From assembly GCA_050872785.1 (NCBI GenBank), contig JBNMHO010000002.1, positions 72,165 to 136,164 of the forward strand: a stretch of DNA of 64,000 nt. Direction: 5' to 3'. Both the position numbers and the translations under genes were made by a program. Below are positions 34,301 to 42,966 of the stretch, piece after piece. The DNA is from Clostridia bacterium. GTDB lineage: Bacteria > Bacillota > Clostridia > Christensenellales > UBA1242. The notes under the pieces were generated by a model, which saw only the letters and a list, made by a program, of their open reading frames with translations, did no database searches and had not been told where the DNA came from. How positions within the stretch are numbered: the stretch's first letter is position 1; each line of letters opens with the position of its first letter.

Positions 34301-37300
34301 ATAACAGACAACGCAGCAAACTATCTTGGCGGCGGTGTGGCTGTTAGAAATGGCGGAACTTTAGAAATTACTGGAGATGTCGAAATTTCATACAACAAAG
34401 CCACAAACGGCGGCGGAATTGCCCTATTTGGAAAAGGCAGTATAACAACAAGCAGTTCTGCAGACGGAAAGAAAGTGCAAATAAAAGAAAATGTTGCAAT
34501 TCTTTCTGGCGGTGGTGTGTTTGCGGCAAGCAGTCCAGAAACTGTTGACGGAAAACTGAGCATTGTCGCAGAACTTAAACTTACTGGTGTCGATATTCAA
34601 GGCAACGAAGCACAAAAATTTGGCGGCGGCATAAGTCTTACTACAACAAATCAAAATACAAACGAAAGAAATGTTACATTTGACAATATTTTGAAAGACG
34701 ATAAAGGCAATAGAATCGTTGGCATTAAAGCAACTATCGGCTTATCTGAAGATAGTGGAAGTGTAACAATTTCAGGCAACAAGGCAAAATATACTGTAAA
34801 TACTAGATTAAAAAATACTGCAGCATACACATCATATGGACTTGGTGGCGGCTTGTATGCTCTTGACGCGAAAGTAGATATTCTAAACACAACAATTTCT
34901 GCAAACGAAACAAGTTTTGAACAAAACTACACCGACACAAGCGGCAACAGTCACCATGAAGAAATTGGCGGTTATGGCGGTGGTGTTTATGCAAGTTACT
35001 CAGCAATTTCTGTCAAAGATTCGATAATTTCTGCAAATATTGCAATGAAAAACGGTGGCGGCTTCTATGTGACTGAGGGTGCAGAAGTTACATTTAGTAA
35101 TTGCGACAATGCAACTCAAATTGCACAAAACAAAGCACAATATGGCGGTGGAATTTATATCCACAACCCTGGTGGCAAAGCAAAAGTTCAAATTGCAAGC
35201 ATTATAGTGGGCGGTGTGGGAAAAGAAAATATCGCTGCAAAAGGTGACGGAATTTATGTTGATGCATCTCGTGATTTTGTAGCACTTCTTATAACCACAA
35301 CAAATGGTTCAACAACATTAAGTGACAATATCGCAATTTCAGACCATGTTTATCTTGCTCCTCACACAAATGCAGAAACAGGCAATCGTGATGACGCAAT
35401 AATTTATGTTGACAAACATTGTTCATCTGGTGCAAGCATAAAGATTGCTCTTGACGAAGACCAGAAAGACCGTGGACACATCGTTGCAAAATATGATTGT
35501 TCTGACGCAGAAAAATGGGCTGACGAAAGAATGTTTGTAACTGACGACCTTGTTTCTCCATATTGCTTCATTGCAAAAGGCGAGAACATTGTTGTCGGCA
35601 TAAAGATTGTTTTGAGGGAAAATGTAAATGACGGGGCAATAAGATTCTTTGAATCACTTGAATCAGCATTTGCCTATGTCACAAGCGGCAACTGGAACTT
35701 TGTTCTTCTTGAAGACCTAGACGAAATGCCAAGCATTGACAATTTTGCAGTGGGAGAACAAATCACTGTAAACAACGGCGTCACGGCAACCCTTTGCTCG
35801 GGGAGAATAACTGGTGACGGTCACGAATGGGAGGCAATCACAGAAGAAAAAGACGGACTAAGTAGAAAAGTTGTTAAGATGTCAAAAGAACTTACATCAA
35901 GCATTTTTAAAGTGTATGGAAGTCTTACAACAACTGGCGTAATATTTGACGGAACGGGCAGCAATGCTGGAATTGCAATTTTGGGAAGTGCTGAAGAAAG
36001 CAACGGTAGCTTTGCTCTGGGAAGCAATACTTTGGTCAAAAACTTCAATAATATTGCCGTGGAAGCAAAAGCAGGCGAAGTTAAAGTCCAAGGAGCAACC
36101 ATTGAAAACAATACTGCAACTGTTATTCAGATTTCTGAGGAAGCAATTCTCACAATGACTGACAGCACAATTACAAATAATAAAATGGCTTCAGGTGACA
36201 GCGTTGTGTCTGTAGCCTCAAACAAGGAAAACAAGATTGAAAATTGTGTCTTTACAGATAACTCAGCCACAGACGGCGGAGCGGTCTTGAATAAAGGCAG
36301 TCTTACAATCTCTGGCGGCAAATTTGCAAACAACAGTGCTACAAATGGTGGCGCAGTTGCAAACGAAAATGACGGAACTTTGACAATAACAACTTCAACA
36401 AGTGGCTCAGCAGACGAAACTGCAACATCGTCAGACGCAGCAGACATTATGTTTGAAAACAACTCTGCAAAAGATAACGGCGGTGCAATTTACTCAAACA
36501 GCGGCACAGTTAAAATCTCTGGTGTAACATTCAGCGGCAACACAACAAAAGAACTTAGCAGCAACGGCGGAACGATTGCGGTAGTTAATACAACAGTCAC
36601 AATTTCAGACACAACAATTCAAAAGTCATATACTTTGGGTTCGAATGGTCTAACAAGTGCAAAAGCAAACAACGGTGGCGGCTTGTATGCAGAAGGTTCA
36701 TCTGTTACACTAAACGGCGGAAATACATTTGAGGACAACAATGCCACAAACGGCGGTGCAATGTATCTCAAGAACAGCAGTATTACTCCAAACACCTCTG
36801 AGGGTAAGGATAACCTCATCACGGGCAACGTAGCAACAAATGGTGGCGGCTTGTATATTGTGACTAATAGCACAGAAGATAAGCCAATGAACCTAAGTGG
36901 ACTTAGTATAATTTCCAACATTGCAAACGACGGAAACGGCGGCGGTGTGTATGTTGCAAGTGGAGCAATCAAACTCACTGGCGGCAGCGTAAACGGCAAC
37001 AAGGCTAAAGCAGATGTGCGAACTACTGATAAAATGAAAGATGTGTCGACTGGCTTTGGCGGTGGTGTGTATGTCGCAAGCGGTGCAACACTTATCATTG
37101 ACGCAGATTCTAGTGAAATTATCACGGGTAACACAGCACTTTATGGCGGCGGTGTTTACACTGCTGGAACAACAACCCTTACAAAAGGTGTTATCAGAGG
37201 CAATGTTGCCACAACAGCCTCAGCCAACACTGAAGGAACAACTACTTCGTTCAAAAATAGTAAGGAAGCAAGAGGTGGAGGTGTGTTTGTTAAAGGAATA

Positions 37301-40300
37301 TTGAATGTCGTTGGCGGCTCAATTTCTGGAAATATTGCAGACTGTGGCGGCGGAGTGTATCTTGACGGCACACTTGTAATGAATGATGGAAACATTAACA
37401 GCAACCAATCATATTGGGGTGCAGGACTTTATGTAAATAGCACGACAGCAACCCTCTCTGGTGGCTTAATCAGCAACAATGTGACAGTTCATGAAGTTGA
37501 AGGAGTTGCAGTGACTGGTGGTGACGGTGGCGGCGTGTATGTTGCAGAAGGAAAGACATTTACCCTTGGAAATGATAAGAATCCATCAGAAACAAGCACA
37601 ACGTCAATTTCAAACAACCAGGCTCTAAGAGGCGGTGGAGTGTTCGTTGCGGGACAAGATTCAGAATTCACTTTGCAAAACGCAACATTGTCAGAAAACA
37701 CTGCTATCCTTGGCGGCGGCGTGTATGTTGGACATAGTATCATAAAGGAAATTATAGACGGAAAAGAAGGAACGCCAAACTACTACCCAGCAAAATTTGT
37801 GATTGATGCTGGAAAAATCTCAAGCAACACGGCAAAAATACCAGAGCAAAAAGACGAAAATAAAGACAAGATTGCTGAAATTATCAAACTTGAAAAGTAT
37901 AGTGTTCCAAAAGGTGGCGGCATTTATTGCGAGGGAACGCTTGAAATGCATAGCGCAACAATAGAGAACAACACTGCTTCGCAAGAAGTAGGTGTCGGCG
38001 GGCTTGGTGGCGGATTGTATTTCGACAATGGAGAAATTCAAGCGGGTGACGACACTCAATCTGGAATAAGTGATGAGAGATTTAGTCTTACAATTGATGG
38101 CTCCTTTGGCAAAAACTCAACATTCACTGGAAACAAAGCAGCCCATGGCGGTGCTATTGAAATTCAATCTAAACAAGGCGTTAATAACATAAAAATTTCA
38201 AACACAACCTTTGACGGAAATACTGCAAGTGTCAATGGTGGTGCTGTGGATGTTCGTGGCAGTGCAATCTTCGCTAATTGCGAGTTCTACAACAACTCAG
38301 CAACAGCCGACGGCGGTGCAATGTATGTTAGAAGGCGTGAAAATACCGAAGACAATTCAGTTGAAATAAAAGACAGCTTTTTCGGTGATGAAGGCGAAGG
38401 CAATACAGCCGCAAAAGGTGGTGCAATTTATGTTTGCGGAAAAGTTATAGACGAAAAGTCTTGTGGACCAAATGTCACACTTTTACGAGTTACAATGTGT
38501 TACAACGGAATTTCCACAGAGCCAACTCGTATAGCTGCTGAATATGGCGGAGCGATGTATATTGAGAACTCAAATGTTTCATTTGTTAAAGGAAAGGAAG
38601 AGGGGGCAAGTACAATCTCTAACGCTGCAACTACAAATGGAAAGGAGAATGAAATCTCACACAACTCAGCCACAAAAGGCGGTGCAATAGCCATGAACGG
38701 TGGAACACTTAATATTTCCGCAAGCACAGCCTTCACTGCAAACAACGCAACAAACGGCGGCGCATTGTATGTCACCTCTGGTGATGTAACTCTTGCCAGT
38801 GGAATATTCGGCGGCGAGGCTTACCAGTCTATTGATGATAAGCATGATCTAAAATCTCTTATAAATGAACATAAAGAAGCATTATCCGATAGAACTAAAA
38901 CTGAGCCATATGCACCAAAAACTGACACAAGCAACACTGCAACAGACGGCGGTGCAATTTATGTGGCGGGTGGCTCGGTTACTATTGCTGAAAATGTGCA
39001 AATTGAGGGTAACCATGCAGAAAACGGCGGCGGTGTGTATATTGCGAATGGCGAACTATATATTAAAGCCGCAAAACCAACTAAAGAAGAAAACAAAAAT
39101 ATTCCTGCTAGCAACATAACGGGCAACTACGCAACAAGCGGCGGTGGTGTGTATGTTGGTGGCGGTATCCTTTCAGTAGGCTTTGACGGTGACGGAGGCT
39201 TGAACCTTGCCTCCTCAGGATATATCTTTGGCAACATCGCAACAAACGGCGGCGCAGTGTACATCTCAGGCGGCTCGGCAAACCTAATCAACGGCAGCAT
39301 AAAAAACAACTGTGCATTTAAGTTAGGTGGTGGTGTGTATATAAATGGCAGTGATGATACTATTCTTACAATGAATAATTTTGAGATATCTGAAAACTAT
39401 GCTCAAAGTGGGGGTGGTATTTGCGTGGCTGGAGCAAAAGTTACAATTAATAATGGCGGAAAAATTAGCGAAAATTCCGCACTAGATATTGGCAACATTA
39501 TTGCTTCTGATGATTTCACAAGAGGTGTTGGCGGTGGTATTTCTATCAGCGGTGGAACTATGATACTTAACGGTTCTGCAATCAACAACAATTTTGCAGA
39601 TAACATGGGCGGCGGAATATACGCATCTAGTGGAACTATTACACAATCTGAAAAAGAAGGTGCAAACACAGATACTCTTAGAATGGGTGGCAACCATGCA
39701 ACAAATTATGGTGGCGCAATTGCAATACCAAGTGGTGGTGGCCATGTTACATTAAGTAACTTTATAATTGGTGGAATTAAGTTTGACACAAAAATAAATG
39801 ATAACATTCTTTACGCCACGAGTGGTTCAGTTAATGGCAGAAGTGTTTCTGGCTTTGATGAGAATCAGATACAGAATATTAAATCTGCTCTTAGCGAAAA
39901 CAGAGTGCAATGGGCAAACTATGCAACATTTGGCGGTGCTGTGTATGTTGCAGGTGGAACATTTAATGTAGCTGCAAAGAGCAGCGGAGATACAAGCATT
40001 GTCCAAGGCTTTGGTGCAAACACTCAAATTGAGGGTAATTTAGGTCAATTTACCGTTGGTGCAGGTAACATTGCTTCGTCTGGCGGTGCATTGTTTGTGG
40101 CTGGTGGCGATGTTATTCTAAATGGCGGCAACTTTGCTTATAACTATGCAGTAGGCAAGGTGAATGATGGAAACCAAGGCAATAAGGAGCTTAAGGACTT
40201 TGTTGACAAAAATCTATACGAAGTAAAAACCGGTGAAAAGGACGAGAAAAGCATTATTGATTATTGGGGTGGCGGTGCCATTTGCCAAGTAAAAGGAACG

Positions 40301-41929
40301 TTGATACTTAACGGTGCACAAATTCAAAACAATGAAACAAATGGTTTTGGTGGTGCAGTCCTAACATTCTCAAGCCGTAAGGTGTCGAAATTAGATGATG
40401 TTGGCACAAACTTCTCAAAATTCACAATCAAAGGTGGGACTAAAATATCCAACAACTTTGGCACGCAAAAAGTTCAAGTACTTAACAACGTTGCCTCTGG
40501 TACACTTGGTCACGTAGGTGATAGTAAATATGGAGATGGGGTAAATAGATTGGCAAGCACAGACGGCATCGTAAGCATTAACAGCATTGTTTACTTTGAG
40601 GGTGGCGAGGTTTACGGCAAGATGACCCCAGCAACCGAAGACCCAAGTAAGGAAGAACCAGATAGTGCAGCGGATAGTTTGTCATTATATCTGCTTGGCA
40701 CGGCGTTTGAGAATTCAAGCGTAACGTCATTTGCAAACAACGATGCGGATGCATTTATTGATGGCATGGAACTAGATGAAAGTGCAACAAACAGTTCAAA
40801 TGCTAATGATAGGAACAAAGAATACTTAAAAGATAAGTATAAAGAGCATTATATTTTCAAGGCGTCTAGCGGAACTTTGCCAGTGTTCAAAAACAATATT
40901 ATTATTGGAAAATATGATGATGAAAACACTTGGTGTAACACCTGTGGCAACACAAGAAAGGTTGATTGTGGCCCGCAACATCAAGCCACAGTTACAATTA
41001 CGGGAAAATGTAGTGAATGTGGCGGAACGGGAAATTATGAAGATGCTGAGGGTGAAACAAAAGATTGTCCATACTGCGACGGGACTGGCATAAGTACTTA
41101 TGAGAAGACTTGTCCACGTTGTGACGGCACAGGAGATGTTGCCTGTCCAGATTGTGCTTCAAGACAACCTTATATTCACATTGATACACACACAAACTGG
41201 GGACAACTTTGCAGTATTCAATATCTCAACAACCTTCCAGTTGACTTCTTAAAAGACTATTCAGAAAGACATTATGCCTATGGCTATTCAGACGGGCTCC
41301 TGTCTTGGGCTAATGGAAAGGCGACAGATAGTCGTAAAGTTCAACGACCAAATATTATCATAAGTTACTTTGAATTAAGAGAAAACGCAAATCTGGAAAA
41401 TAATGGCAGACGAATTACGGACAACTGCGAATATGTATCACATCAAAAAGGCATTTGGCGGGTACTCCAACTTAAAGCAAAGAAAAAACCAAATGCAGGG
41501 CTGGACAGTGAAAGTAAGGATGCGTTAGGATTAACTGGCACATTCTTTGAAGGATTTTTTGATCTTATCTCTTGGCTTGATAAAAACCCAGCAATGAGTG
41601 GCATTGCTTCCAAATTCGGCGGTGTAACAAAGCTGGCAGAAACAATAAACGCCTTTGCTTCCATAGATTATAGTGCAGGCTTGCAGGGTGCTCTGTATGG
41701 ACAATCTGATACAATTGCAAAATGGAAAGAATACTTAAGGACGGATTGGAGCGGTGATTTTGTTGATGTTGGTCCACTTATTGAAGCAATTATTCAAGGA
41801 GCTGGTGAGATAATTACAGTTGTTTATCCTCCAGCAAAGCCAGTTGTGGATGCAATAAAATATGGCTACGAGCTGTTGAAAGGCGGTGTTAACTTAATTT
41901 TGAAGCTCAAATATGTTTCACTTAAATAG
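6737..41929 (+). CDS. giant (11,730 aa) membrane-anchored, repeat-rich surface protein (adhesin-like)
   Basis: Uninterrupted 35,193-nt ORF. RBS GGAGG (6724-6728) lies 8 nt before the ATG, and an intrinsic terminator follows the stop. The translation shows Flg_new-type repeats (GYxFxGW...LYAxW), Pmp-type FxxN/GGA[IVL] beta-helix repeats, BspA-type LRRs and a C-terminal CxxCxGxG zinc finger. Confidence 0.92.
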   Translation: MDNFTPKGNGQNNVPQNGNVRNGAPQNGDSQNFARPSVPQGGVNGNIPRQGMGMNNVSSNGVRPSSMNGQNSSMQNAVRQSPNGVTQNRPTPNGNFANGQRVNVPNANGQNVTPQNFSRPNAHMQNANRTYPNTQNQNVSRGQNINGGNFGSPNLNTQNQNMPHGQNANVNGQTNGQGLNGQNSNVQNINPAGGSGGGNSGNGKIAGGAGKKKFSKKFKGILVGVISAIIIAISATVGIFVAPHGEGQKCRITFEDMGPYGARDAVELNVGDRYEAPTLDDILSDDGQENVLVKFKGWLKSDGTPYVAGNVNEDIVLHPDYELGDVKVTFVTIDSYNDTNSYIFLGEIFTKYYAEKISFASYLNLYQSLKLSDGVRGNTYAAETDYMKEYVLESGVSGEANYSAKNYSEFAGKFLNVKNFSMAGSDNLYSIEDVIDTPSGNRVVVVNFDGKDVEIKYNSNLKSIEKQYTSGGIAGETFENEETDRVYKFGQENYVLPSYAALRSVDSSKGFVLNNPRYHRLVGWSFIAPKIMTESGEIDNPDFGKEGTYYKFNASERLKLTREFLKDENRLELYAVWDEDVTSLNVYSNPNLASVASISMNATQGKSVGDWLGDIVSSLQKRGSVLVGFNTSPRYDGKILNLNTFLEGGLTSHDNPEETNPYLSGVEVNLYAVYRRVVENTYIKLNDLDLKVSGVNITKDSLNINYNLQQSVGESYVYDASGVEVSFDEAERMFVVKNLIEGTTFDLPNLSRSNYLFEGYRTKNRLYAMAETSSSVQVKVLLDDILSDGTFVINSNWRGVETSFAFDLQNGQKEIVTAVYGTKLVVDITTQSDVTSVVVRKFVGLEPILTFEFEKEGYNFLGMSKNAAGGEYLDEVLGEFVLNDEFLNVLTSVDGIRTIFACWEIKTVTATFVLSGGTFDNGSESVTGRYTLSTTYGGSVELPSKDLSKFVREGYNFDGWFDNSNLSGEAVCGYDATDIVLKKDITLFAKWVEIKFATIFSDYNKTKNVKIETDRNGNFVFAGSELDGMTFVAITQTPTGGENIVKVGEVASVSLGEEFYCVWRKVVYQNGGTAENGATGDEISGGYVTYGVPISPISNEYTCSKYFYFAGWQIVNKNGSIASDFVQPSTVLDESSTGYSISDSLTAGGEAKIVLVANWQRKDVRIEIYSDENMRVLVKSIKVDVNKFDSVTLLSDAAGDLALSTINGRDIDFVKDDLQNSTAYYSNGSELKITIPKDSLIYEVNNVFVYKLCAVTKKYATFFEEENGRSVRISVGTDFEDGTDRTGYAENAGPADKIAKEDGSYVYDTIISNGVRGKFVLTSGEDAPFEFSKEHYNFDKWQKSDGVNYAVGESVKILSDVTFVAQWVKKVYSLNIKDTVGGNYAGQDGVKTVKFVYGQTIDLSDVLYDLNTRFDDEASRNVKLAKNILYNGVNFALSDKLLMEYSEFGLEGILLEGELDDGVVEMTITWEEMTYQIVVDLNGGSWNEDVELSENATLQNGKIVYTVTFAQAENLKILYEGIEKQGYTFSSFLNGRNGNVTKTSDGYFYAATSEYNVFDGDNILATYDESFSVVFDLSGADELAEVATITQNVNFVTVGTESDGDWIEITLPAAGDRGEGFEFAGWWKNNNATDATNNLSIIQNSFGEGNTLKITREDLNSYNLLGKNEVVLYAVWKAKVTFVAGRKFADGFITGATNAQGEAALIDIDYNSNGQTISVKGFEDWVVCGEIDANTLGKYKFEHANGFGFVFGGWNENGKRVFSLDVSAPTILVAEWASAKITITLRDQDGKSFAQSGLTTEEVVIERDFSTGDFLDLNNIYRTFVAAGKTTTPYLFGHNFVGWVEGSVGMTNWTSATSKTIYTSSNLLAMPLQDSVYCAVFEKADVEIVADMNTEDERGDRPFVNDIIETFYGKFGELYTVDVSDKNQYSAHPYFEIISWKANKNGSTFETTFMLDASVVEYDAQLNKYVANIVATWTRKTSTIVINVNGGTIASGYFNSDSGFANNLIKVEYTTRQIIITQYVSNDSFLTLPTAENISREMFVLNGYNVDNGKDVLTLAGGNKVWNTESGRIVITANWLAVANVNVYENAGNEVEKQISFQVVLGEGNGIQFDELGNEVLIYRAGSVEKRVSFAIFAKTSYEILGFSLYRSSGVNYQFDTLYSLNNVSTLSIYTVWVGKEYSISIYANDPELSPAENSSNVTVLSEGFRYGENVDMSKFFLKASSTGGWVFESFEIEGLVFDGQTTTFNPEVQDIGYKTNYDFTTNWKGKEIKVTYNFGNATFTDTDGQSGSEIVKTYTYSKRFGENGTMVKTLTPSESTTTCVRFEDEGAEHPLYAFSSFVSLDENVEVVNGEFELPAKDITLVAKWQSREIKLVVEPTGAAIGEDKDAKFDSLENTSGFKVSKGIRAGKDVLLVEELLIGDKVDLATLPKAVCSGEQYAYVFLRNYAGEGVCEEGNRSYIENTVFEVSKNSSVNFDIIWNAESEAFELWFTLLWSPTDVTVTYVQSLPVVNAPTITDASGDEVLDETSNTVYGYNNRATGYITDAAKYQTLEVNKLGEIGHTERNSETGESEFVLGFSLLEGYNLFGWKQIGWTTERDHSKVDGNYTKLNNKNSYFFSPTGDQNGTTNLLAFEKKTSAVKLYPIWEQEDYVLSLKDQTSKNFDGQKDFVVKYDSVFSVQKLLEDGGITLVTTAFDTTEKVFKNFANWVYNDKTFASETSLVFSKDFGGFINSDDLSDTNRTVTLNMGWEEVQYRLKLNLYFGDYSDKANVYFYRDADGSCYILTDNVVKFSELKTDGILLSNLKSLLLDETKLSKTVGDNVYSFAGWALTTREDGNILEPTKMLSLAGEKLVINEDTFGIGSEANLEEELLAYLNPETATIELTAMWNCYKLVINANEGTLTDTTSSKLWDGESDGQGNAWTADADGNICLWTYYGANIVLNEKILSWFARENYSAETKTFIHFVPQLDADGNVVRDEFDEIVYDTERLSVKDSTCDFVVVTNDNLFVEWIGNQVEIVVSPNSKTNDVEGNFDSASYAQFEAAYRELFSEVDSLLDASRSHKVETTAETINGVSVTILRLAANYGDQIDCFNLLLASSNGGNTFYGWTDGYLNYSTVPFVAKDNDSNRLYGLWSAVAMFELNGGRYGQSSSAKEVIDPVAPEGSDGKINLPKKMLINEGGSPYDAGPRKVGYEFVGWSDNAGGYKTYSEYVAKWKNLYIEEYIKSLTTQTEEEKNTIKNQLVKEVVRDHEVYVERFKTLMGEEYVTNLLATSFKVYDENKEYTLTGDVTFYALWRQVKVTVTFFKSIDDYKNGAGNGTDSMATYDIWYGETWTLPTKYDTSDYATKIFGWTHSTDGKQDAFAGWNVYNATSEMKLSSGETVELTSDKFFANLMDGDSVRKNVHLVTIWESVSVTVKIKLGPSSEDYAYYGESAGQDYGYLETLVEGDSKYLIISNPFSSFYYPNLDRIVRFGKVAKGYVEPYGYASSKAIVSNTKNIRATTLHIAKTGESRYIGEVREVNGNYVYELEVVWAEAECFIDNYFNVNTNIGHKFYESLQDALEDVADKDNDTFETRQANIMLLDKVSLEGDTTKYHYIKNTVNIGLRKVVVDIYNKSAKNIVLRRQTTGVAVIVGENGLFAIRNTTDNLSFNIEGEGKSGDVFVKVESGAFEITGRIEVTNFNNTLSSKGSLVWAVGGSVTLDGVSFSGNMLSGTNSSLFGGVICAESGCSVSISNGEFKNNSVVGTFSDENLSTYGGAVAVLSKSTLTINSVKFLQNISRVGNKGRSFGGAIYASGSEVSYYSCYVTDTDDNGNPKQGKNDISFRENSAMFGGAIAVVGGLDGTTLVKSTLQLSGLIDEAAGKTWTVMMYHNFTDGEGESGNDIYAVDANVDVTAMASLCEEAKGNGAGIFAGSNTDATIKTSIFSTTYAQNGSAIYFRGNSLTVSDSVFSQNVATSGNVVDGDGGAIYVEGAIAQTAVVVLTGNVISYTWAKRGGAIYVGENVNFSLSGKEGELSSIEKTYAELGGAIYYGSTYEAESQINYVSFKTSIYLEDADGQKIYPKNGGGIYVADGNLVVANSSFTFCRADNGGAVYIKKGKITFKNTNTFEKLNDVSSGVIEENPNLEGSEENALAARYVGNNASFGGGLYIEEEGEFDFQSGGLGYNTATATASAIYNYGKVRLGDVTLEENNSTTYIAILNQGSVEIYGNAFIADGQRIFLGTYLSETVKIVDGKKETVTERKFHEITISKENWLNKKADSEEVNHVEIDFVTKNAVMNKPVVQFASVMENGEENKSKLYNAYKQYLQDGNEEIFTLTQSASFVLRCDDEKFALVLALHSYDILFMDLSKDSDGKVIASKTIKCGDPLSDETLASINSIKPTNLRYGYTFVGWAYYNEYPVASETYSDFEGLGVRYSFKDDEKSVDVYSQILSGEGKFNYIENLKNVRSEAGNEFKFPAHNFYLYAVWKPNEYDVEFVYEPLGHINTTINNQEFSSNLGMMNVLKKKVGYGLSFNLPLASEVNKTLFVTYDDVTNVERDASNVPQRVTLSSGESVTNFELETSGLYAGSYFYTKQIAFGESVFELKFYVGENEDRAWSVFMNDTDLSSPKVTLRNSLNIDGEEQKVDPNVYPEKVTFEKDGNNVSYETSVDEDGRYFFVDAESGRKYVSRQLIRLDGYEFSNYKINGNLGYGAGDLFRMDESNPDFSDLGRKITVTVMFKRLTVKLILNNNDSQEGSVTAEKDVYPGTEILLPTMYDFGEFENIGRRENYSLVGFSKNKNYAADGQGVLYAPGDRYVVTESSTGVHELYAIWEEAECFVQPTNSTKETEKWFYSSLSKAFEDVSSNVYGTTYSQFNIVILKQNVEVKSELVVLADVILSAKAGEVTLKLSDDFAEGKAMFVVGGTSVSGDYTKAKLTIDGKSGTNLVISQGTVKNRSESLIVVNPNSVLNILGYTRFENATVTSENRGGMITVFGQMGDEGALYGVVNISGTGVVFSGNSSTNGGAIYVGSYGILNAEADDKDGISFGKTKDEYKENTASGNGGAIFAQENAQITLKNVWFKENAASVGGAVYISADCKSNISDCTFSGNIATGSSLGGGAIYSQADLKLSATTFMEFDSNNSLGNGGAVFASGVLTFVGNPTFTKNTAKTSGGAIFAPQGLVFDGGYFENNVASEGFGGAVYVKNILQKTTRNETLTVTFKSNKATYAGAIAIIDLQQNTSLDNLYFDSNEYVNEGGAIYVENAAPNFMLTLGKTVNISGSKALGGNAQYQRGGAAYVKNGNLLFEGTADGNAAVSGGAFYLEGLSRLVLNGARVQNSSAESDGGAIYVGGSSYIQFTGDNTVLSSNLALRGGAMFVNSSNVNTVIKNVTFDANSLSETSMFGEVLYISGNSQVTMQGNIGLVVASTDSHQVYVGKNGTLTLINAKFVNSENVEISSKTTIESEIRGTSVSHGKIVMDEKSYITDIYFSPISKDKLSANIQILTVSGNMSSTMENRERIVIHLYDVATDAKIENLHMVKFDSSDLARFAEEYFELDEETKKFVLAGSGSYLDIIKMAEDITIDPNGGEITYNGTTYTEPFKIQLDDSDDNTLKFLDNLSGFRAGYKLQNYFDGYVDGEATGSRRMNAQTIKPYKQVTLKAVWEQRSYAYKSYYQNEKSEYIEVGGGNIMFTDRIYLTAPARQYLTCIGWKVFYVDATTSNFVPLIDKVMGLKDSFSLNRMGETVEETKSKLKLVEENGGTVCFVAQYEETMVEIIFDGNGGTSKSGETMVKMSIPQSREYLTYASLLDTFSKADYAVNGIFTGDNNIYHENVDTMYDFSNPSICIKDLTKLTLHCNWQKVEAVIIKNNVSAGEINRINYETVGEAIKNLLDGDTLEIVSSRIELKSALVFNKAISITVTASKPVTLTRATSLSSYMIRVENGQVTFDSNNSTITLDGNNDGSTDGAIYVASGATLVAGDVLVVANQNVTNNGAAIANNGRLILVGAKILNSSTKGNGGAIWNNGSLLVTDVTIENCSATNGGAIWTSGTAEIAGGTFDQNSATMGASVYVGNKVDGTGEGIVVHSATFQNGNMATYASKTLDEVKTYGGAIYVAEGVQRVVVGVSTQIIGNKATYGGGIYYVGDKVAPAVSNISFEAGCVLSENSAVYGGAICFGPVEDNFNNHVVRIISADIRSNTATYGGGIAVLKGTLEIYGGNVGKNICSELGQNIYVSLGGKLSVYGGTIGSTDTSGSEIVIEGNSLEDLSGKMELAGGGDIYDTVRLKGGAKINVKSDITSSKVISVAIENYPAGTDEVIIATFDDNLDSDATKFEVESSQRDNYRTRTSGQDVVITRAMFSLIIDPDGGVLSSDIAGIRQYGTRYVADVMFGTNLSSLLANTKAARDRREFAYWGIVNGETVTQLALDTTMPYGDLQIKAVYTQILFVLTLDFNDMGGLSKTKAEFNVQNLQNENFRNFKIDNGSVSVEVFVTGEGSNAKQTLAALASRLSRFGYMLSGFDLTAGNSFGINLDASNFEMSAEDTTVYAIWTANSYEVTFHSNPYEGEEETKTISVNYDENFTLLGIDDIALDGYILSGWAISRDGNGKTYKLGENLLMNKDMTQSLNFYAIWSAKQYTVVYESELTEATGNVEDTVMTYGEEGELSSSKFTALGYTQIGWKTADGTEYLFANSLTVKNLTTEDKVSVYAVWQGNEYIVALHVANDETSRTKEIKATYGDSTKNLPDISEIVDTYSRLTMYFVGWTTVPNGKTEDVEYSNCQVIYNFTTEDRIELYPVFVKYSLNILSNNGEDKVLAFEPDNQGVITVSKQDLISFALVGHEIGFLSRTKEVSLGASNINFDEQGYITISTSVFTKPVFELFVAWKSLPYVLQFEVEGGNGEYPTSTIYVSPTGTNTYAEGATSCVLPQDMETPEILHGWSMLPDASVVNFELGASLALTQDFVAEFAKYQDISLGILKLYGVRETEYSIVYNLNTTRTIIGASATDIVGENQNETAKFEIGTESNILFADINGNVWEIADTRDENDQYFAYFAGWAYSPSATTPDIRQSYENPNEATTKFAGTVTLYAVWEEYSNPFIFTYLDSKIVGLSEEGQTLENANIILPEHKLYKVGTSVVVGETITGISGLLTAGQIQSLNFKFVTDGFEIEPFAFENTNNLLGLNNLKQNQVFGFGAFVNETLKDITFEESDNIAMFVASDGNIYSTDGTSASLFAVLISNMGGEANYAVAQSANYNGTNYNINSVLPFAFAKTTFETISIPQTISSLKEGSLSYIENLSSIIVPFVGGGSAEDGAARASSLKYLFVDRYGEVVIPAGLVQVNIQNDKLDNFGDYAFEGFAKLERIFFGANIKTFGAYAFSDCANLIELGTSGLFDISNITNIGSYAFQNCVNIPKSIDLSNVQTFGERVFDGSGLQSVVLSGTTENFGENKTFEELTTLVEARLYSIAAFEAVVNGTGITASDIEEDRKGVVYTNINFYQRIVKTAEWQKYLRYNIVVDNLIDVLSSTNELISYHSSLEDAVANAQNGNKIVVKSDINLKSTITIDKQISIYAGYEKLDSEDRGGITFTRKSDETAFIVESNGNVTFGGNFVEGDDATYVNAELDIVGSKRESADSLIKVNGGVVGFNLGLKIYDHISQNGSVVYATGGTISVTGSEIYNNYAVTSGGVFYISSQATLNIFRANIHDNGMFDGEVMTKSGGVVFAQDGSVVNISDKETQIVNNGAQNGGAIYIDCEDVTSTISAGLFSGNMATMSGGVVLLNAGKLDITGEVEFYGNSAKNMGGAIAVVGGTLCVNKGVKIGSSEANMGNSAAIGGGVAINGGGLVADNVTISSNNATTGGNVYISSDKTSSITSSEIILGNNGGSIDFGTDVLGGGIFVDGAKVNIKNSSIKENKAFAGGAIYITENNGLASEVTLTSGELLNNEADMGGAIFVKNGKVVATSVDIAENNAKDGAAIYVSNGEVTLKAGKISNNTATENGGGLSINGGTVNIIESTILSDNRATENGGNIYYSDGSLVINVATIEKGTANFGGGLYLERNALGVEKEADVKILSAKFTENVANSGGAIYTNLVLSIDKAELSGNTASEFGGAIYVGDRARVVLDEVSSSENISNAENAEKFANIYISKDASEHALSISNNTVLGEAEKSNGVYLPKGKIIDVVALTLGSEGETSMRKNRIRLHLERSPLDKSEWQDDKGIYVALYADTKYATTGVSKFVSEGVCFTRMGAKIYATIATVVDVTDRGKPINYASLKDATEQSTTEGRNYIFEIFHDQKIDGNNFVQVGNKQNITITRQKDADAKIYRDANYTGVMFEILGKLSLNFDKDNSEFSGSVLQPLDIFGSDESGENSQSVEATSAMFRVVSSGTLNIYEAVTIQNGSNLLGYGGAVSVENEYATLNMYNGTIANCNALYGGAIAVIKGNANILGGILENNTSNLGGAIYSAGTIVVGTDSTTTLMANNIAQGVSGFGGAIYTVDGSMATINSVTFTSNIASKGGAIYAEGTLNISNSRFSQNRASKGGAIYDTGLMSIVGGNFSENGSTEEQDCEFGGAIYIARSKSDAVAIEGVSFNNNSAHSGGAIYVEKGEITIRNTSETSGSITGNSATYGAGLYVGAGNVTIISYNISSNVAEGDLVSNGGGVYIAGGNVTISNSQITDNSAMFGGGIYFVSGSLSIYGGAISNNHAEASSALTQTYGGGIAQLGGSLKLAAYTEEGGASSNVTISGNDADFGAGLYLVAREGGSAEISNTEISGNTARVTAGGLAVKGVNTTIINTKILKNTSGNDESGKERVGQDVWFGGESYLVFGSQVTLGENKEKDRPTIYVAGESIFKNSSTPTVSDNKALIFNTEFDYSTLYQEIYLHHEKNYLGNYVDTFFVALGSDVIQDIITLHVDEGVPYETKVVYVGATYAEKALAKFTIPVDSDYTLKQGSGASQDYLVLAPQSYQVVDEEGNIRYITEKLQDAIDKANAHKNSKNEQLMVVINEKEVVITEAVQIGVTQSSESGSVIDTVYIAARKSTVISRNGYGGNVFNIGRYADVKIGTNCMEDFAGVIEGFKTAFGGTIPTITFSGDIKSSGNVAGVDAFIRNSGSLTLGENVTLENNTLKATGTGAVNDGGAVVVTNGGTLNVRGSVFIGNSATGSGGAIYVENGSMLNFESGTIKGNTAFVSGGGILIDNSTATISGGTITDNAANYLGGGVAVRNGGTLEITGDVEISYNKATNGGGIALFGKGSITTSSSADGKKVQIKENVAILSGGGVFAASSPETVDGKLSIVAELKLTGVDIQGNEAQKFGGGISLTTTNQNTNERNVTFDNILKDDKGNRIVGIKATIGLSEDSGSVTISGNKAKYTVNTRLKNTAAYTSYGLGGGLYALDAKVDILNTTISANETSFEQNYTDTSGNSHHEEIGGYGGGVYASYSAISVKDSIISANIAMKNGGGFYVTEGAEVTFSNCDNATQIAQNKAQYGGGIYIHNPGGKAKVQIASIIVGGVGKENIAAKGDGIYVDASRDFVALLITTTNGSTTLSDNIAISDHVYLAPHTNAETGNRDDAIIYVDKHCSSGASIKIALDEDQKDRGHIVAKYDCSDAEKWADERMFVTDDLVSPYCFIAKGENIVVGIKIVLRENVNDGAIRFFESLESAFAYVTSGNWNFVLLEDLDEMPSIDNFAVGEQITVNNGVTATLCSGRITGDGHEWEAITEEKDGLSRKVVKMSKELTSSIFKVYGSLTTTGVIFDGTGSNAGIAILGSAEESNGSFALGSNTLVKNFNNIAVEAKAGEVKVQGATIENNTATVIQISEEAILTMTDSTITNNKMASGDSVVSVASNKENKIENCVFTDNSATDGGAVLNKGSLTISGGKFANNSATNGGAVANENDGTLTITTSTSGSADETATSSDAADIMFENNSAKDNGGAIYSNSGTVKISGVTFSGNTTKELSSNGGTIAVVNTTVTISDTTIQKSYTLGSNGLTSAKANNGGGLYAEGSSVTLNGGNTFEDNNATNGGAMYLKNSSITPNTSEGKDNLITGNVATNGGGLYIVTNSTEDKPMNLSGLSIISNIANDGNGGGVYVASGAIKLTGGSVNGNKAKADVRTTDKMKDVSTGFGGGVYVASGATLIIDADSSEIITGNTALYGGGVYTAGTTTLTKGVIRGNVATTASANTEGTTTSFKNSKEARGGGVFVKGILNVVGGSISGNIADCGGGVYLDGTLVMNDGNINSNQSYWGAGLYVNSTTATLSGGLISNNVTVHEVEGVAVTGGDGGGVYVAEGKTFTLGNDKNPSETSTTSISNNQALRGGGVFVAGQDSEFTLQNATLSENTAILGGGVYVGHSIIKEIIDGKEGTPNYYPAKFVIDAGKISSNTAKIPEQKDENKDKIAEIIKLEKYSVPKGGGIYCEGTLEMHSATIENNTASQEVGVGGLGGGLYFDNGEIQAGDDTQSGISDERFSLTIDGSFGKNSTFTGNKAAHGGAIEIQSKQGVNNIKISNTTFDGNTASVNGGAVDVRGSAIFANCEFYNNSATADGGAMYVRRRENTEDNSVEIKDSFFGDEGEGNTAAKGGAIYVCGKVIDEKSCGPNVTLLRVTMCYNGISTEPTRIAAEYGGAMYIENSNVSFVKGKEEGASTISNAATTNGKENEISHNSATKGGAIAMNGGTLNISASTAFTANNATNGGALYVTSGDVTLASGIFGGEAYQSIDDKHDLKSLINEHKEALSDRTKTEPYAPKTDTSNTATDGGAIYVAGGSVTIAENVQIEGNHAENGGGVYIANGELYIKAAKPTKEENKNIPASNITGNYATSGGGVYVGGGILSVGFDGDGGLNLASSGYIFGNIATNGGAVYISGGSANLINGSIKNNCAFKLGGGVYINGSDDTILTMNNFEISENYAQSGGGICVAGAKVTINNGGKISENSALDIGNIIASDDFTRGVGGGISISGGTMILNGSAINNNFADNMGGGIYASSGTITQSEKEGANTDTLRMGGNHATNYGGAIAIPSGGGHVTLSNFIIGGIKFDTKINDNILYATSGSVNGRSVSGFDENQIQNIKSALSENRVQWANYATFGGAVYVAGGTFNVAAKSSGDTSIVQGFGANTQIEGNLGQFTVGAGNIASSGGALFVAGGDVILNGGNFAYNYAVGKVNDGNQGNKELKDFVDKNLYEVKTGEKDEKSIIDYWGGGAICQVKGTLILNGAQIQNNETNGFGGAVLTFSSRKVSKLDDVGTNFSKFTIKGGTKISNNFGTQKVQVLNNVASGTLGHVGDSKYGDGVNRLASTDGIVSINSIVYFEGGEVYGKMTPATEDPSKEEPDSAADSLSLYLLGTAFENSSVTSFANNDADAFIDGMELDESATNSSNANDRNKEYLKDKYKEHYIFKASSGTLPVFKNNIIIGKYDDENTWCNTCGNTRKVDCGPQHQATVTITGKCSECGGTGNYEDAEGETKDCPYCDGTGISTYEKTCPRCDGTGDVACPDCASRQPYIHIDTHTNWGQLCSIQYLNNLPVDFLKDYSERHYAYGYSDGLLSWANGKATDSRKVQRPNIIISYFELRENANLENNGRRITDNCEYVSHQKGIWRVLQLKAKKKPNAGLDSESKDALGLTGTFFEGFFDLISWLDKNPAMSGIASKFGGVTKLAETINAFASIDYSAGLQGALYGQSDTIAKWKEYLRTDWSGDFVDVGPLIEAIIQGAGEIITVVYPPAKPVVDAIKYGYELLKGGVNLILKLKYVSLK
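7397..7462 (+). other. single TM helix (signal-anchor) of the giant protein
   Basis: ILVGVISAIIIAISATVGIFVA is preceded by a Lys cluster. There is no signal-peptidase-like N-terminus. Confidence 0.8.
7470..17340 (+). repeat. long array of degenerate Listeria-Bacteroides (Flg_new) type repeats
   Basis: Recurrent units of about 70-90 aa each end in W. Examples are REGYNFDGWFDNS...LFAKW, KVGYEFVGWSD, EGFEFAGWWKNN...LYAVW and GHNFVGWVEG. Confidence 0.75.
17341..40900 (+). repeat. seven Pmp-like right-handed beta-helix modules with interleaved Flg_new runs and one LRR block
   Basis: Approximate module boundaries are 17341-19755, 21181-23412, 24260-25745, 29216-31430, 31431-33570, 33571-35590 and 35591-40900. 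Each opens with a head motif (FYESLQDALEDV, FYSSLSKAFEDV, NYETVGEAIKNL, SYHSSLEDAVANA, NYASLKDATEQS, RYITEKLQDAIDKA, RFFESLESAFAYV). Each is then filled with FxxN...GGA[IV][YF] turns. Flg_new runs lie at 19756-21180, 23413-24259 and 25750-27957. Confidence 0.75.
27958..29215 (+). other. BspA-type leucine-rich repeat block inside the giant protein
   Basis: Repeats are of the form xFxxAFxxCxxLxxIxLPxxLxxIGxxAF. Examples are FGDYAFEGFAKLERIFFGANIKTFGAYAFSDCANLIEL and IGSYAFQNCVNIPKSIDLSNVQTFGERVFDGSGLQSVVL. Confidence 0.7.
40934..41155 (+). other. DnaJ-type cysteine-rich zinc-finger segment (aa ~11400-11473)
   Basis: CNTCGNT ... CSECGGTG ... CPYCDGTG ... CPRCDGTG ... CPDC. Three are exact CxxCxGxG motifs and two are partial CxxC motifs. 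Confidence 0.75.
41156..41926 (+). other. orphan C-terminal domain (~257 aa) of the giant protein
   Basis: Non-repetitive sequence with no LPXTG. The last ~120 aa are Gly/Ala-rich and amphipathic (GLTGTFFEGFFDLISWL...GIASKFGGVTKLAETINAFASIDYSAGLQGALYG...IEAIIQGAGEIITVVYPPAKPVVDAI). I recognise no family. Confidence 0.5.
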
Positions 41930-41953: not shown

Positions 41954-41987
41954 AAAAAAAGAAACCAATTTATTTGGTTTCTTTTTT
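41954..41987. terminator. bidirectional intrinsic terminator after the giant gene
   Basis: GAAACCAA (41961-41968) pairs with TTGGTTTC (41974-41981). An A-run lies upstream and TTTTTT downstream. Confidence 0.8.
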
Positions 41988-42060
41988 GCTATATATTTGC
42001 TATATATTTGCTATATATTTGCTATATATTTGCTATATATTTGCTATATATTTGCTATAT
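41988..42060. repeat. 11-bp tandem repeat (GCTATATATTT) x6 plus a partial copy
   Basis: Six perfect head-to-tail copies span 41988-42053, and a 7-nt partial copy spans 42054-42060. The array lies between convergent genes. Confidence 0.95.
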
Positions 42061-42084: not shown

Positions 42085-42966
42085 TTATTCTTTGTTGATA
42101 ACAATTTTAACTTCGGTGCCGTCGATTTCAACATTTGCGTTGCTGTTTGCTAGGCAAGTGAGAAGTCCTTTGTTGTTTTCTTCAACGGAACTGTCGCCAA
42201 ACAAAAGGGCAGTGATATTTTTGTTTATCATTTCTGCAAGGTCTTGTTCGCCCAAGAATTTGTTTATAATCTTGTTGATTTCTGAAGTATCTTCGGCTTT
42301 CATGTTGTTAAGTGTTATGTCTTTGCTTTCCACAAATTCAAATTCGCTTCCAGCAATGCATTTTGTTGTGAAATTGGTTGTTACATAAAGCGTGTCTGGA
42401 ATATAGTTTCTGATAATTTTTGTAAAGATATTGCCGTTCTTTGAAATCTCTTCCTTTGTTGCTTTGAAGTTGATTTTTGCGATAACTTTGCAGTCGAACT
42501 TTCCGTCTGTTTGAAGATTGCTGAATTCCATTGAAAGAATTTCTACGTCAGCATTGTCAAGTGCAAAAGCCTTTTGATCCAAACTGTGCAAAAGGGAATT
42601 TGCCAGCCCAGCAACTTGCTTGCCGCTGAGTTTAATTGTGCCTTGAAGTGCCGACCCTTGATAATCTGTTAGTGAAAACTCTTTGCTCCCGTCCTCGTTT
42701 GTTTTATAGATTTGTCCACCTTTGCCCGAGCCAAACATGTTGTCAAGTGTTATCACGATGTCGTCATCTGTATATTTGTCTGGCACAACTTGTTCTTCGC
42801 TTGGTGGAGTTTGAATTGCCTTTATCTGCGCCCTCGCTTTCAAAATGTCAACCCCCGTTGTTGCCTTTATTCCAACATACACCGCAACCGACAGCCCAAA
42901 AACAACCACTGCGAAAATGATAAGACCCTTGAGCAGCCCCAAAAGACCACTAGATTTTTTTGCCAT
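42085..42966 (-). CDS. hypothetical membrane-anchored (N-terminal TM) protein
   Basis: 293 aa. The N-terminus MAKKSSGLLGLLKGLIIFAVVVFGLSVAVYVGI is a signal-anchor. A GGGGG RBS lies upstream of the ATG. I recognise no family. Confidence 0.65.
   Translation of the reverse strand: MAKKSSGLLGLLKGLIIFAVVVFGLSVAVYVGIKATTGVDILKARAQIKAIQTPPSEEQVVPDKYTDDDIVITLDNMFGSGKGGQIYKTNEDGSKEFSLTDYQGSALQGTIKLSGKQVAGLANSLLHSLDQKAFALDNADVEILSMEFSNLQTDGKFDCKVIAKINFKATKEEISKNGNIFTKIIRNYIPDTLYVTTNFTTKCIAGSEFEFVESKDITLNNMKAEDTSEINKIINKFLGEQDLAEMINKNITALLFGDSSVEENNKGLLTCLANSNANVEIDGTEVKIVINKE

What the first reader, a model, noticed from the sequence alone, without database searches (positions are those of the whole stretch)
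40934..41926. DnaJ-type CxxCxGxG zinc finger plus orphan domain at the extreme C-terminus of an exported protein
After about 11,400 aa of extracytoplasmic repeats the sequence changes abruptly. It reads W-CNTCGNT-...-CSECGGTG-...-CPYCDGTG-...-CPRCDGTG-...-CPDC. That is three exact and two partial copies of the DnaJ cysteine-rich-domain motif. DnaJ is normally a cytoplasmic Zn-binding chaperone element.

It is followed by about 257 aa with no repeats and no wall-sorting signal. The tail of this region is Gly/Ala-rich and amphipathic (GIASKFGGVTKLAETINAFASIDYSAGLQGALYG..., IEAIIQGAGEIITVVYPP).

Possible readings:
- a distal tip or effector domain, as in polymorphic-toxin logic where the variable business end is C-terminal;
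- a membrane-active or partner-binding tip;
- a secretion or folding cap.

No co-directional immunity-like ORF follows. The next gene is convergent.
Basis: partly seen in the sequence, partly recalled or inferred. Interest (0 to 1): 0.7.

Follow-up and report, generated by a model that had tools for sequence, protein, structure and literature searches.

The report
Zinc-finger ladder on giant surface protein
The far end of a 1.26-megadalton surface protein of a gut Christensenellales bacterium carries a conserved DnaJ-type cysteine cluster with sites for three metal ions plus an orphan 257-residue domain; it is a fixed end-piece of this one protein, not a swappable toxin.

Summary
The 11,730-aa ORF (6737-41929, +) has one N-terminal membrane anchor. 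At aa 11400-11473 it carries 11 Cys and 1 His, all invariant in five Christensenellales species that are only 35% identical at the other positions.

The cluster is DnaJ-cysteine-rich-domain type: the best solved-structure match is E. coli DnaJ, E 1.2e-4, though it scores below Pfam's cut-off. It has six half-sites, not four, spaced 7-9-15-11-7. It aligns end to end (hhalign 98.6%) with uncharacterised six-CxxC modules spaced 7-13-16-13-7, most of them on proteins with a signal peptide or membrane anchor. I infer a three-metal hairpin "ladder".

The 257-aa tail splits into a roughly 105-aa mixed part and a roughly 150-aa helical part. It has no Pfam, NCBIfam, PHROG or PDB relative and only three relatives among 1.84 billion protein representatives. 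AlphaFold failed on it (pLDDT 33-41).

The toxin reading is refuted:
- the cassette always sits on the same scaffold;
- it diverges at the scaffold's rate;
- it is under purifying selection (dN/dS 0.13-0.24);
- no immunity ORF follows.

Most likely it is the distal tip of a giant adhesin-like fibre. What it binds is unknown.


The parts
6737..41929 (+). Giant ORF of 11,730 aa (1.26 MDa): Flg_new repeats, Chlam_PMP beta-helix blocks, one BspA-type LRR block, then the C-terminal cassette
6737..7396 (+). N-terminal region, aa 1-220, predicted cytoplasmic. It is low-complexity (N 24%, G 17%, Q 11%) and ends in KKKFSKKFK
   Evidence: positive-inside rule (inference)
7397..7462 (+). The only transmembrane-like segment, aa 221-242 (ILVGVISAIIIAISATVGIFVA). 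It acts as a signal anchor, which places aa 243-11730 outside the cell
40673..40933 (+). Conserved segment before the finger, aa 11313-11399 (DSLSLYLLG ... HY.F ... NN[IV][IV]IGKY). It follows the last beta-helix block and is probably part of the terminal module
40934..41155 (+). Cys-rich module, aa 11400-11473, with six half-sites: CNTC, C(x3)H, CSEC-GGTG, CPYC-DGTG, CPRC-DGTG, CPDC. That gives 12 invariant ligands, enough for three predicted metal sites
41156..41476 (+). Orphan middle domain, aa 11474-11580. Invariant blocks are QPYI.I, IQYLNNLP.DF..DY..RHY, RK.QRPN.II.Y.E.R and NC.Y..H..G.WR. Its secondary structure is probably mixed alpha/beta
41477..41926 (+). Orphan helical tail, aa 11581-11730. 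Two low-confidence models agree on five to six helices. Conserved motifs are SDTI..WK, GD.[VI]D[VI]GP and a terminal KYV. No segment is hydrophobic enough to span a membrane
41955..41987 (+). Terminator-like hairpin shared by the two convergent genes; its sequence is conserved in the relatives
42085..42966 (-). Convergent 293-aa gene with an N-terminal membrane anchor and no family match. It is syntenic in every relative for which the downstream sequence is held, at 58-96% identity. It is listed as context only; no link to the cassette was shown

Best explanation
Window bases 40673-41926 (aa 11313-11730) encode a lineage-specific, vertically inherited end-piece of a giant surface fibre found in a small group of gut Christensenellales. 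The fibre is anchored by its N-terminus.

**Shown**
- The protein has a single N-terminal signal anchor and a body made of known surface repeats. The C-terminus is therefore the end farthest from the anchor.
- The Cys-rich module is conserved ligand by ligand and is of DnaJ cysteine-rich-domain type.
- It has six half-sites with near-palindromic spacing. It is homologous to uncharacterised six-CxxC modules found mostly on predicted exported proteins.
- The 257-aa tail is an orphan, under purifying selection, and always fused to this scaffold.

**Inferred**
- The six half-sites pair in nested fashion (1+6, 2+5, 3+4). This extends the DnaJ arrangement of 1+4 and 2+3 by one rung.
- Three metal ions (probably Zn) are bound, the middle site being Cys3His.
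- The result is a rigid hairpin 'ladder' whose entry and exit lie side by side. It would stick out as a finger at the junction between the last beta-helix and the terminal domains.
- In the anoxic gut the thiols can stay reduced outside the cell, so metal binding there is feasible.
- The middle and helical domains then form the functional tip, which binds a partner: another cell, a host or dietary surface, or copies of itself. The ladder provides compact, protease-resistant stabilisation or part of the binding surface.

The ligand is unknown.
For: **Topology and body**
- One transmembrane segment at aa 221-242, with a Lys-rich N-side.
- Flg_new, Chlam_PMP and LRR_5 along the body.

**Finger**
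- Pfam DnaJ_CXXCXGXG is the top hit, E 0.0021.
- The profile against the PDB gives 1exk (E. coli DnaJ cysteine-rich domain) at E 1.2e-4, then 2ctt, 7zhs and anti-TRAP.
- 12 of 12 ligand columns are invariant against 35% background identity.
- Five unrelated proteins show six-unit spacing of 7-13-16-13-7 or 7-11-19-11-7; here it is 7-9-15-11-7.
- hhalign gives 98.6% probability, E 4.9e-16, over 82 columns end to end.
- P0011 carries a 106-aa insertion exactly between units 3 and 4, which fits a hairpin tip at that point.
- Many of these relatives start with a signal peptide or anchor.

**Cassette is fixed to the scaffold**
- P0001 is colinear with aa 8142-11729 at 44% identity.
- Of the four GTDB loci, the three held with their upstream sequence (L003, L004, L006) end ORFs of more than 3,678 aa; L005 starts inside the tail.
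- Identity of scaffold / finger / middle / helical parts is 86/79/83/85%, 46.5/41/49.5/36% and 47/41/46/31% in three relatives.
- dN/dS is 0.19 / 0.24 / 0.13 for the three parts, against 0.27 for the scaffold.
Against: - There is no structural or HMM evidence for what the tail does. Both AlphaFold runs failed (pLDDT 33 and 41).
- The Pfam score of 18.7 bits is below the gathering score of 32.7.
- Metal binding, the pairing scheme and the Cys3His site are untested. The second Cys of unit 2 is lost, so that rung could be empty.
- Outside the cell the Cys residues could form disulfides instead.
- A binding role rests only on position and conservation.
- A BspA-type LRR block in the middle of the protein is an equally plausible adhesive element.
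Confidence: 0.5

Rival explanations
1. Polymorphic-toxin or effector cassette. The last roughly 260-330 aa would be a variable, deliverable toxin carried on a conserved filament, as in CdiA, Rhs or LXG systems.
For: - The position is C-terminal, on a huge exported repeat protein.
- The tail is an orphan sequence with many invariant polar residues (R, H, E, C) in the middle domain.
- One 845-bp metagenome contig (L002) carries only the last 190 codons, next to unrelated DNA.
Against: - There is no identity break at the junction.
- Selection is purifying, equal to or stronger than on the scaffold.
- The scaffold is the same in every relative.
- No co-directional ORF follows: a terminator, an 11-nt tandem repeat and a convergent gene come next.
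- There is no toxin family hit in Pfam, NCBIfam or PHROGs.
- It is absent from phage, plasmid and viral collections.
- L002 is 98% identical to L004, where the same sequence is fused to the giant ORF.
Confidence: 0.05
2. Redox or chaperone finger. The CxxC array would act as an extracytoplasmic thiol-disulfide oxidoreductase or holdase, like the plant DnaJ-like finger proteins LQY1, CYO1 and PSA2. It would help fold or assemble the giant fibre, or neighbouring copies, after Sec export.
For: - The domain type is the same.
- CYO1 and LQY1 have protein disulfide isomerase activity, and PSA2 sits in the thylakoid lumen (PMC4754418, PMC4806229).
- The location here is extracytoplasmic.
- The ectodomain holds 60 further Cys residues.
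Against: - The module emerges last from the translocon, so it cannot assist folding of its own upstream 11,000 aa as they emerge.
- 60 Cys in 11,399 aa is sparse (0.5%).
- This reading leaves the strongly conserved 257-aa tail unexplained.
- No activity has been tested.
Confidence: 0.15
3. Membrane-active or re-anchoring tail. The amphipathic helices of aa 11581-11730 would insert into, or lie on, a membrane. That could be the producer's own membrane, tying the fibre down at both ends, or a target cell's membrane.
For: - The last two predicted helices have hydrophobic moments of 0.45-0.54 and are Lys-rich in this species.
- Helices are predicted consistently in both models.
- A conserved convergent neighbour encodes a membrane-anchored protein that could act as a dock.
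Against: - The highest 19-residue Kyte-Doolittle value in the tail is 1.15, against 2.64 for the real anchor, so there is no hydrophobic hairpin.
- The Lys-richness is not conserved in the 40%-identity relatives.
- Synteny of the neighbour is no stronger than that of housekeeping genes nearby.
Confidence: 0.1
4. Pure structural cap. The module would only terminate and protect the open end of the last beta-helix, perhaps oligomerising fibres through a helical bundle, with no ligand of its own.
For: - It follows a Chlam_PMP beta-helix block directly.
- It evolves at exactly the scaffold's rate.
- The weak PDB matches of the final helices are to coiled-coil helical barrels, which is compositional similarity.
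Against: - About 400 aa, including a 12-ligand metal module, is large for a cap.
- dN/dS of the helical part (0.13) is half that of the scaffold (0.27), which suggests extra constraint.
Confidence: 0.2

Closest known systems
DnaJ/Hsp40 cysteine-rich (zinc-finger-like) domain, Pfam PF00684; structures 1EXK (E. coli DnaJ) and 2CTT (human DNAJA3)
   Same: - It shares the CxxCxGxG repeats, with three exact copies here.
- These are the best Pfam, NCBIfam and PDB matches.
- The inner four units have DnaJ-like spacing.
   Different: - It has six half-sites (three predicted metals) rather than four (two Zn).
- Unit 2 is C-x3-6-H.
- The score is below Pfam's gathering cut-off.
- There is no J domain, G/F region or DnaJ C-terminal domains.
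- The predicted location is extracellular, on a 1.26-MDa surface protein.
Uncharacterised six-CxxC modules (P0006, P0007, P0009 = MBP7829738.1 from a Kiritimatiellae MAG, P0012, P0015)
   Same: - The six units align end to end (hhalign 98.6%).
- The spacing is palindromic.
- Unit 1 can read CxxCxNTRxVxC (P0009).
- They lie mostly behind a signal peptide or membrane anchor.
   Different: - Those are small proteins of 129-299 aa, with the module usually at the very C-terminus and all 12 ligands Cys.
- They have no curated family of their own.
- Here the module is internal to a terminal cassette and has one His ligand.
Plant thylakoid DnaJ-like zinc-finger proteins (PSA2, LQY1, CYO1/SCO2)
   Same: - They are stand-alone CxxCxGxG fingers without a J domain, on the thylakoid membrane or, for PSA2, in the thylakoid lumen, which is not a cytoplasm-like compartment.
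- LQY1 has a transmembrane domain with the finger C-terminal to it (PMC4754418, PMC4806229).
   Different: - They have two to four repeats.
- They are small assembly factors with measured disulfide-isomerase activity.
- No specific sequence relationship to them was tested here, beyond the shared Pfam family.
Polymorphic toxin systems (CdiA-CT, Rhs-CT, LXG)
   Same: A distinct, non-repetitive C-terminal module at the end of a very long exported repeat protein.
   Different: - There is no conserved pre-toxin boundary with an identity break.
- There is no immunity gene.
- There is no cassette exchange.
- There is no toxin-family match.
Fibrillar adhesins and chlamydial Pmp-type beta-helix surface proteins
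   Same: - A long stalk of repeated surface domains (Flg_new, Chlam_PMP, BspA LRR).
- One anchored end and a distinct terminal module.
   Different: - It is anchored by an N-terminal transmembrane helix, not by LPXTG or an autotransporter barrel.
- The terminal module matches no known adhesive domain.
- Adhesion has not been tested.

Membership tests
DnaJ cysteine-rich domain (Pfam PF00684) | Repeated CxxCxGxG motifs (four in DnaJ) | tested here: met
   There are three exact CxxCxGxG copies plus CNTCGNTR, C(x3)H and CPDC.
DnaJ cysteine-rich domain (Pfam PF00684) | Score at or above Pfam's gathering threshold (32.7 bits) | tested here: not met
   The score is 18.7 bits, E 0.0021; it is the top hit but sub-threshold. 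The profile of five orthologs against the PDB gives 1exk at E 1.2e-4.
DnaJ cysteine-rich domain (Pfam PF00684) | Cys ligands conserved in homologs | tested here: met
   11 Cys and 1 His are invariant in five species, with 35% identity elsewhere.
DnaJ cysteine-rich domain (Pfam PF00684) | Binds Zn(II) tetrahedrally, with distant units paired | not testable with these tools
   This needs metal analysis or a structure. The AlphaFold models were unusable.
DnaJ/Hsp40 chaperone (type I) | J domain, G/F region and C-terminal substrate-binding domains flanking the finger | tested here: not met
   The Pfam and NCBIfam matches cover the finger only, and the flanks have no DnaJ match.
Six-CxxC palindromic module (uncurated group seen here) | Six half-sites spaced about 7-13-16-13-7 | tested here: met
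   The spacing here is 7-9-15-11-7, with unit 2 as C..H. hhalign gives 98.6% probability, E 4.9e-16, over 82 columns.
Six-CxxC palindromic module (uncurated group seen here) | Nested pairing 1+6, 2+5, 3+4 giving three metal sites | not testable with these tools
   This is inferred from the palindromic spacing, the DnaJ precedent and the 106-aa insertion between units 3 and 4 in P0011. The alternative pairing 1+2, 3+6, 4+5 is not excluded.
Polymorphic toxin C-terminal cassette | Sharp drop in identity at the scaffold/cassette boundary between relatives | tested here: not met
   Scaffold against cassette identity is 86 against 79-85%, 46.5 against 36-49.5%, and 47 against 31-46%.
Polymorphic toxin C-terminal cassette | Co-directional immunity gene immediately downstream | tested here: not met
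   A terminator, an 11-nt tandem repeat and then a convergent gene follow, and the layout is the same in the relatives.
Polymorphic toxin C-terminal cassette | Same cassette on different scaffolds, or orphan cassettes | tested here: not met
   There are only three homologs among 1.84 billion representatives and four loci among 185,579 species genomes, all on the orthologous giant ORF. The short contig L002 is unresolved.
Fibrillar adhesin | Stalk of tandem surface domains plus a cell anchor | tested here: met
   Flg_new, Chlam_PMP and LRR_5 are present. There is an N-terminal transmembrane anchor and no LPXTG in the last 730 aa.
Fibrillar adhesin | Recognised adhesive domain at the distal end | tested here: inconclusive
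   The tail matches no family, so it can be neither assigned nor excluded.
Pore-forming or membrane-insertion domain | Hydrophobic helical hairpin long enough to span a bilayer | tested here: not met
   The highest 19-residue hydropathy in aa 11381-11730 is 1.15, against 2.64 for the N-terminal anchor.

The most novel reading that the evidence does not exclude
The six-CxxC, three-metal 'ladder' is an undescribed structural class of DnaJ-type finger specialised for proteins outside the cytoplasm. Here it presents a brand-new roughly 250-aa tip domain, through which a 1.26-MDa fibre lets these Christensenellales dock onto a specific partner cell or surface in the gut.
Probability: 0.2. Interest if true: 0.65.

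Novelty: new variant of a known kind. Interest (0 to 1): 0.42.

Why it matters
Christensenellales are heritable, health-associated gut bacteria, and their cell-surface biology is almost unknown. A 1.26-MDa fibre with a conserved end-piece unique to this group is a concrete candidate for how they attach to partners or surfaces.

Separately, the six-unit palindromic CxxC module recurs on predicted exported proteins of distant phyla and has no curated family. If it binds three metals outside the cell, that would extend the DnaJ finger from a cytoplasmic chaperone element to a general extracytoplasmic building block.

The practical value now is modest, because the tail's function remains unassigned.

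Tried and rejected
**Searches that found nothing**
- Word-indexed homolog search with the last 351 aa, and with the 250 aa before the finger: no hits.
- The profile search returned only two fragments.
- Two JGI metagenome scans, one viral scan, and phage and plasmid tblastn: nothing.
- Pfam, NCBIfam, PHROGs and PDB sequence and profile searches of the tail gave only chance-level hits: a designed coiled coil, CpaE and a phage tail tip protein J fragment.
- Literature searches found no description of this protein or of a six-CxxC DnaJ-type module.

**Structure prediction**
- AlphaFold2 on 365 aa gave pLDDT 33, and on the 156-aa helical part pLDDT 41, each with a three-sequence alignment.
- I did not run Foldseek, because models this poor give meaningless matches.

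**Ideas tested and dropped**
- The middle domain as a degenerate Flg_new repeat: an HMM built from this protein's own repeats gives negative scores.
- A WxG-type hairpin at 'DWSGD': the Trp is not conserved.
- The + strand ORFs after the stop codon as immunity genes: they are artefacts of the tandem repeat.
- L002 as an orphan cassette: its homologous part is 98% identical to L004, where it is fused to the giant gene. The unrelated 255 nt match nothing held here, so a chimera or a deletion cannot be told apart.

Full report
**1. What is there**

The finding lies at the end of a single ORF, 6737..41929 on the + strand. It encodes 11,730 aa, 1.26 MDa.

The protein starts with about 220 aa of N/G/Q-rich low-complexity sequence ending in KKKFSKKFK. 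The only strongly hydrophobic segment of the whole protein follows at aa 221-242, with a Kyte-Doolittle mean of 2.64. One other 19-residue window passes the 1.5 cut-off (1.84, near aa 5950); I did not treat it as a transmembrane segment. By the positive-inside rule the N-terminus is cytoplasmic and everything after aa 242 is outside the cell.

The body carries domains typical of surface proteins: Flg_new (Listeria-Bacteroides repeat), many Chlam_PMP beta-helix repeats and one BspA-type LRR block. The neighbours are housekeeping genes: TypA/BipA, enolase, SufC/SufD, LeuRS and SpoIIE. This is therefore a chromosome of a spore-forming Firmicute. The closest genome hit is Christensenella sp. UBA7862, and the others are Christensenellales or uncultured Clostridia MAGs.

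**2.

- Aa 11400-11473 hold 11 Cys in 74 residues, against 60 Cys in the preceding 11,399 (P = 2.6e-13).
- The three exact CxxCxGxG motifs are the only ones in any of the six frames of the 64-kb window.
- The cassette resembles nothing else in the protein or the window.
- No LPXTG-like motif is present in the last 730 aa.
- The gene ends at a terminator hairpin (41955-41987), and the next gene (42085-42966) is convergent.
- The short + strand ORFs after the stop codon are read through an 11-nt tandem repeat and are not genes.

**3. Relatives**

An exhaustive HMMER scan of 1.84 billion representative proteins found only three true homologs of the last 351 aa.

- **P0001** is a 3,619-aa fragment, colinear with aa 8142-11729 at 44% identity.
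- **P0002** is the part of the same gene that lies after a scaffold gap in contig L001.
- **P0003** is 98% identical at DNA level to the end of the giant ORF in L004.

A scan of one genome for each of 185,579 species found four loci (L003-L006). In the three held with their upstream sequence (L003, L004, L006), the cassette ends an ORF that runs more than 3,678 aa to the edge of the fetched DNA; L005 is a short contig that starts inside the tail. JGI metagenomes, viral contigs, phages and plasmids gave nothing. The cassette is therefore rare, restricted to a few Christensenellales, and always on the same scaffold.

**4. The Cys-rich module**

In an alignment of five species, C11400, C11403, C11411, H11415, C11425, C11428, C11444, C11447, C11459, C11462, C11470 and C11473 are all invariant. 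The other positions are only 35% identical between the distant lineages. The chance that all 12 fall in invariant columns is 5.7e-7. C11492 is not conserved.

The family assignment is DnaJ-type but weak:
- Pfam DnaJ_CXXCXGXG is the top hit at 18.7 bits, below the 32.7-bit cut-off.
- A profile of the five orthologs finds E. coli DnaJ 1exk (E 1.2e-4), DNAJA3 2ctt, DNAJA2 and anti-TRAP as the best solved structures.

The 12 weaker hits of the exhaustive search are more informative. Five of them (P0006, P0007, P0009, P0012, P0015) carry exactly six CxxC units with palindromic gaps of 7-13-16-13-7 or 7-11-19-11-7. The window protein reads CNTC-7-C(x3)H-9-CSEC-15-CPYC-11-CPRC-7-CPDC. Profile-profile alignment of the two sets is end to end, unit on unit, at 98.6% probability and E 4.9e-16. 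In the giant protein the second Cys of unit 2 is replaced (Q, P, A or E), and an invariant His follows 3-6 residues later.

In DnaJ (established structure, 1EXK) units 1+4 and 2+3 each hold one Zn, forming a hairpin. The inner four units here have DnaJ-like spacing, and the outer two sit 7 residues outside them. I therefore infer a three-rung hairpin with pairs 1+6, 2+5 (Cys3His) and 3+4. P0011 has a 106-aa domain inserted exactly between units 3 and 4, as expected for the tip of such a hairpin. The alternative pairing 1+2, 3+6, 4+5 is not excluded.

Several of these relatives begin with a signal peptide or membrane anchor (P0008, P0009, P0011, P0012, P0015). This form of the finger is thus commonly predicted to lie outside the cytoplasm. 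DnaJ-like fingers on the thylakoid membrane, and one (PSA2) in the thylakoid lumen, are already known; CYO1 and LQY1 have disulfide-isomerase activity (PMC4754418, PMC4806229). The six-unit form, however, has no curated family, and I found no paper describing it.

**5. The 257-aa tail**

The tail has two parts.

- **Aa 11474-11580** are densely conserved: QPYI.I, IQYLNNLP.DF..DY..RHY, RK.QRPN.II.Y.E.R and NC.Y..H..G.WR.
- **Aa 11581-11730** are predicted helical in both AlphaFold runs, with helices at about 11591-11616, 11618-24, 11628-40, 11657-70, 11679-96 and 11698-11726. Conserved motifs are SDTI..WK, GD.[VI]D[VI]GP and a terminal KYV.

Pfam, NCBIfam, PHROGs and PDB searches, by sequence and by profile, give nothing credible. 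The middle part is not a degenerate copy of the protein's own Flg_new repeat. No stretch is hydrophobic enough to cross a membrane; the maximum is 1.15. The last helices are amphipathic and Lys-rich in this species only.

**6. Toxin test**

| Relative | Scaffold | Finger | Middle | Helical |
|---|---|---|---|---|
| L003 | 86% | 79% | 83% | 85% |
| L004 | 46.5% | 41% | 49.5% | 36% |
| L006 | 47% | 41% | 46% | 31% |

Identity to the window protein shows no break at the junction. Against L003, dN/dS is 0.27 for the scaffold, 0.19 for the finger, 0.24 for the middle part and 0.13 for the helical part. There is no immunity-like ORF, and the layout downstream is the same in the relatives.

The whole giant gene evolves much faster than its housekeeping neighbours. 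In L001 the cassette is about 70% identical while SufD is 96%. This is usual for exposed surface proteins.

**7. Most likely function**

The only anchor is N-terminal, so the C-terminal module is the free, distal end. It is conserved, constrained and unique to this protein.

I read it as the tip module of a giant adhesin-like fibre. In this reading the metal ladder is a rigid finger or stabiliser at the junction with the last beta-helix, and the middle and helical domains form a binding or docking surface for an unknown partner. Metal binding outside the cell is plausible in an anoxic gut habitat; this is inference. My confidence is about 0.5.

The rivals are:
- a purely structural cap or oligomerisation piece (0.2);
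- a redox or holdase finger like LQY1 and CYO1 (0.15);
- a membrane-binding tail (0.1);
- a toxin (0.05).

**8. Novelty and verdict**

The finger is a new variant (six half-sites, one His, extracellular, on a megadalton fibre) of a known kind of domain. The tail is an orphan family seen in about five species. Nothing points to a new mechanism, and the function is unassigned.

Interest is moderate, 0.42.

Noticed in passing
window 41985-42064: An 11-nt tandem repeat (TTTGCTATATA, 7.3 copies) sits directly after the shared terminator hairpin between the giant gene and the convergent gene. Relatives have an array at the same spot but with different units (L004 GCTAATATTTTT, L006 a 15-nt unit in 6 copies, L003 GCTATATTTTT).
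   Followed up: partly
window 43355-43425 (-): There is a Gut-1 RNA (Rfam RF01706, 62 bits against a gathering score of 50) immediately downstream of tRNA-Met and tRNA-Glu (43466-43627, -). The 135-aa ORF 43227-43634 (-) is an artefact that overlaps these RNA genes.
   Followed up: no
L002:1-255: This is an 845-bp metagenome contig. Bases 256-845 are 98% identical to the tail of the giant gene in L004, but the first 255 bases match nothing held here. The break falls inside the middle domain (RPN|LIIGY). It could be a chimeric assembly or a deletion remnant.
   Followed up: partly
window 42085-42966 (-): The convergent 293-aa protein has an N-terminal membrane anchor and no family match. It is syntenic with the giant gene in every relative for which the downstream sequence is held (58-96% identity). 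Its function is unknown.
   Followed up: partly
window 31127-38800 (giant protein aa 8131-10700): Divergence from Christensenella sp. UBA7862 is mosaic: 94-98% identity over aa 8131-8830, but 57-85% over aa 9731-10700. This suggests recombination or uneven constraint within the scaffold.
   Followed up: no
window 41909-41926 and the ends of L001, L004, L006: The last residues are KYVSLK here and in L003, but YVKCG, KYVRCA and KYVSCAST in the other species. A near-terminal Cys is thus present in three of five species.
   Followed up: no
window 5600-6736: A 1.1-kb AT-rich spacer with few ORFs lies between enolase and the start of the giant gene. It has no Rfam match at gathering score.
   Followed up: no
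window 41156-41476 (aa 11512, 11564, 11569): The invariant residues H11512 (RHY), C11564 and H11569 (NC.Y..H) in the orphan middle domain could form a further metal or catalytic site.
   Followed up: no
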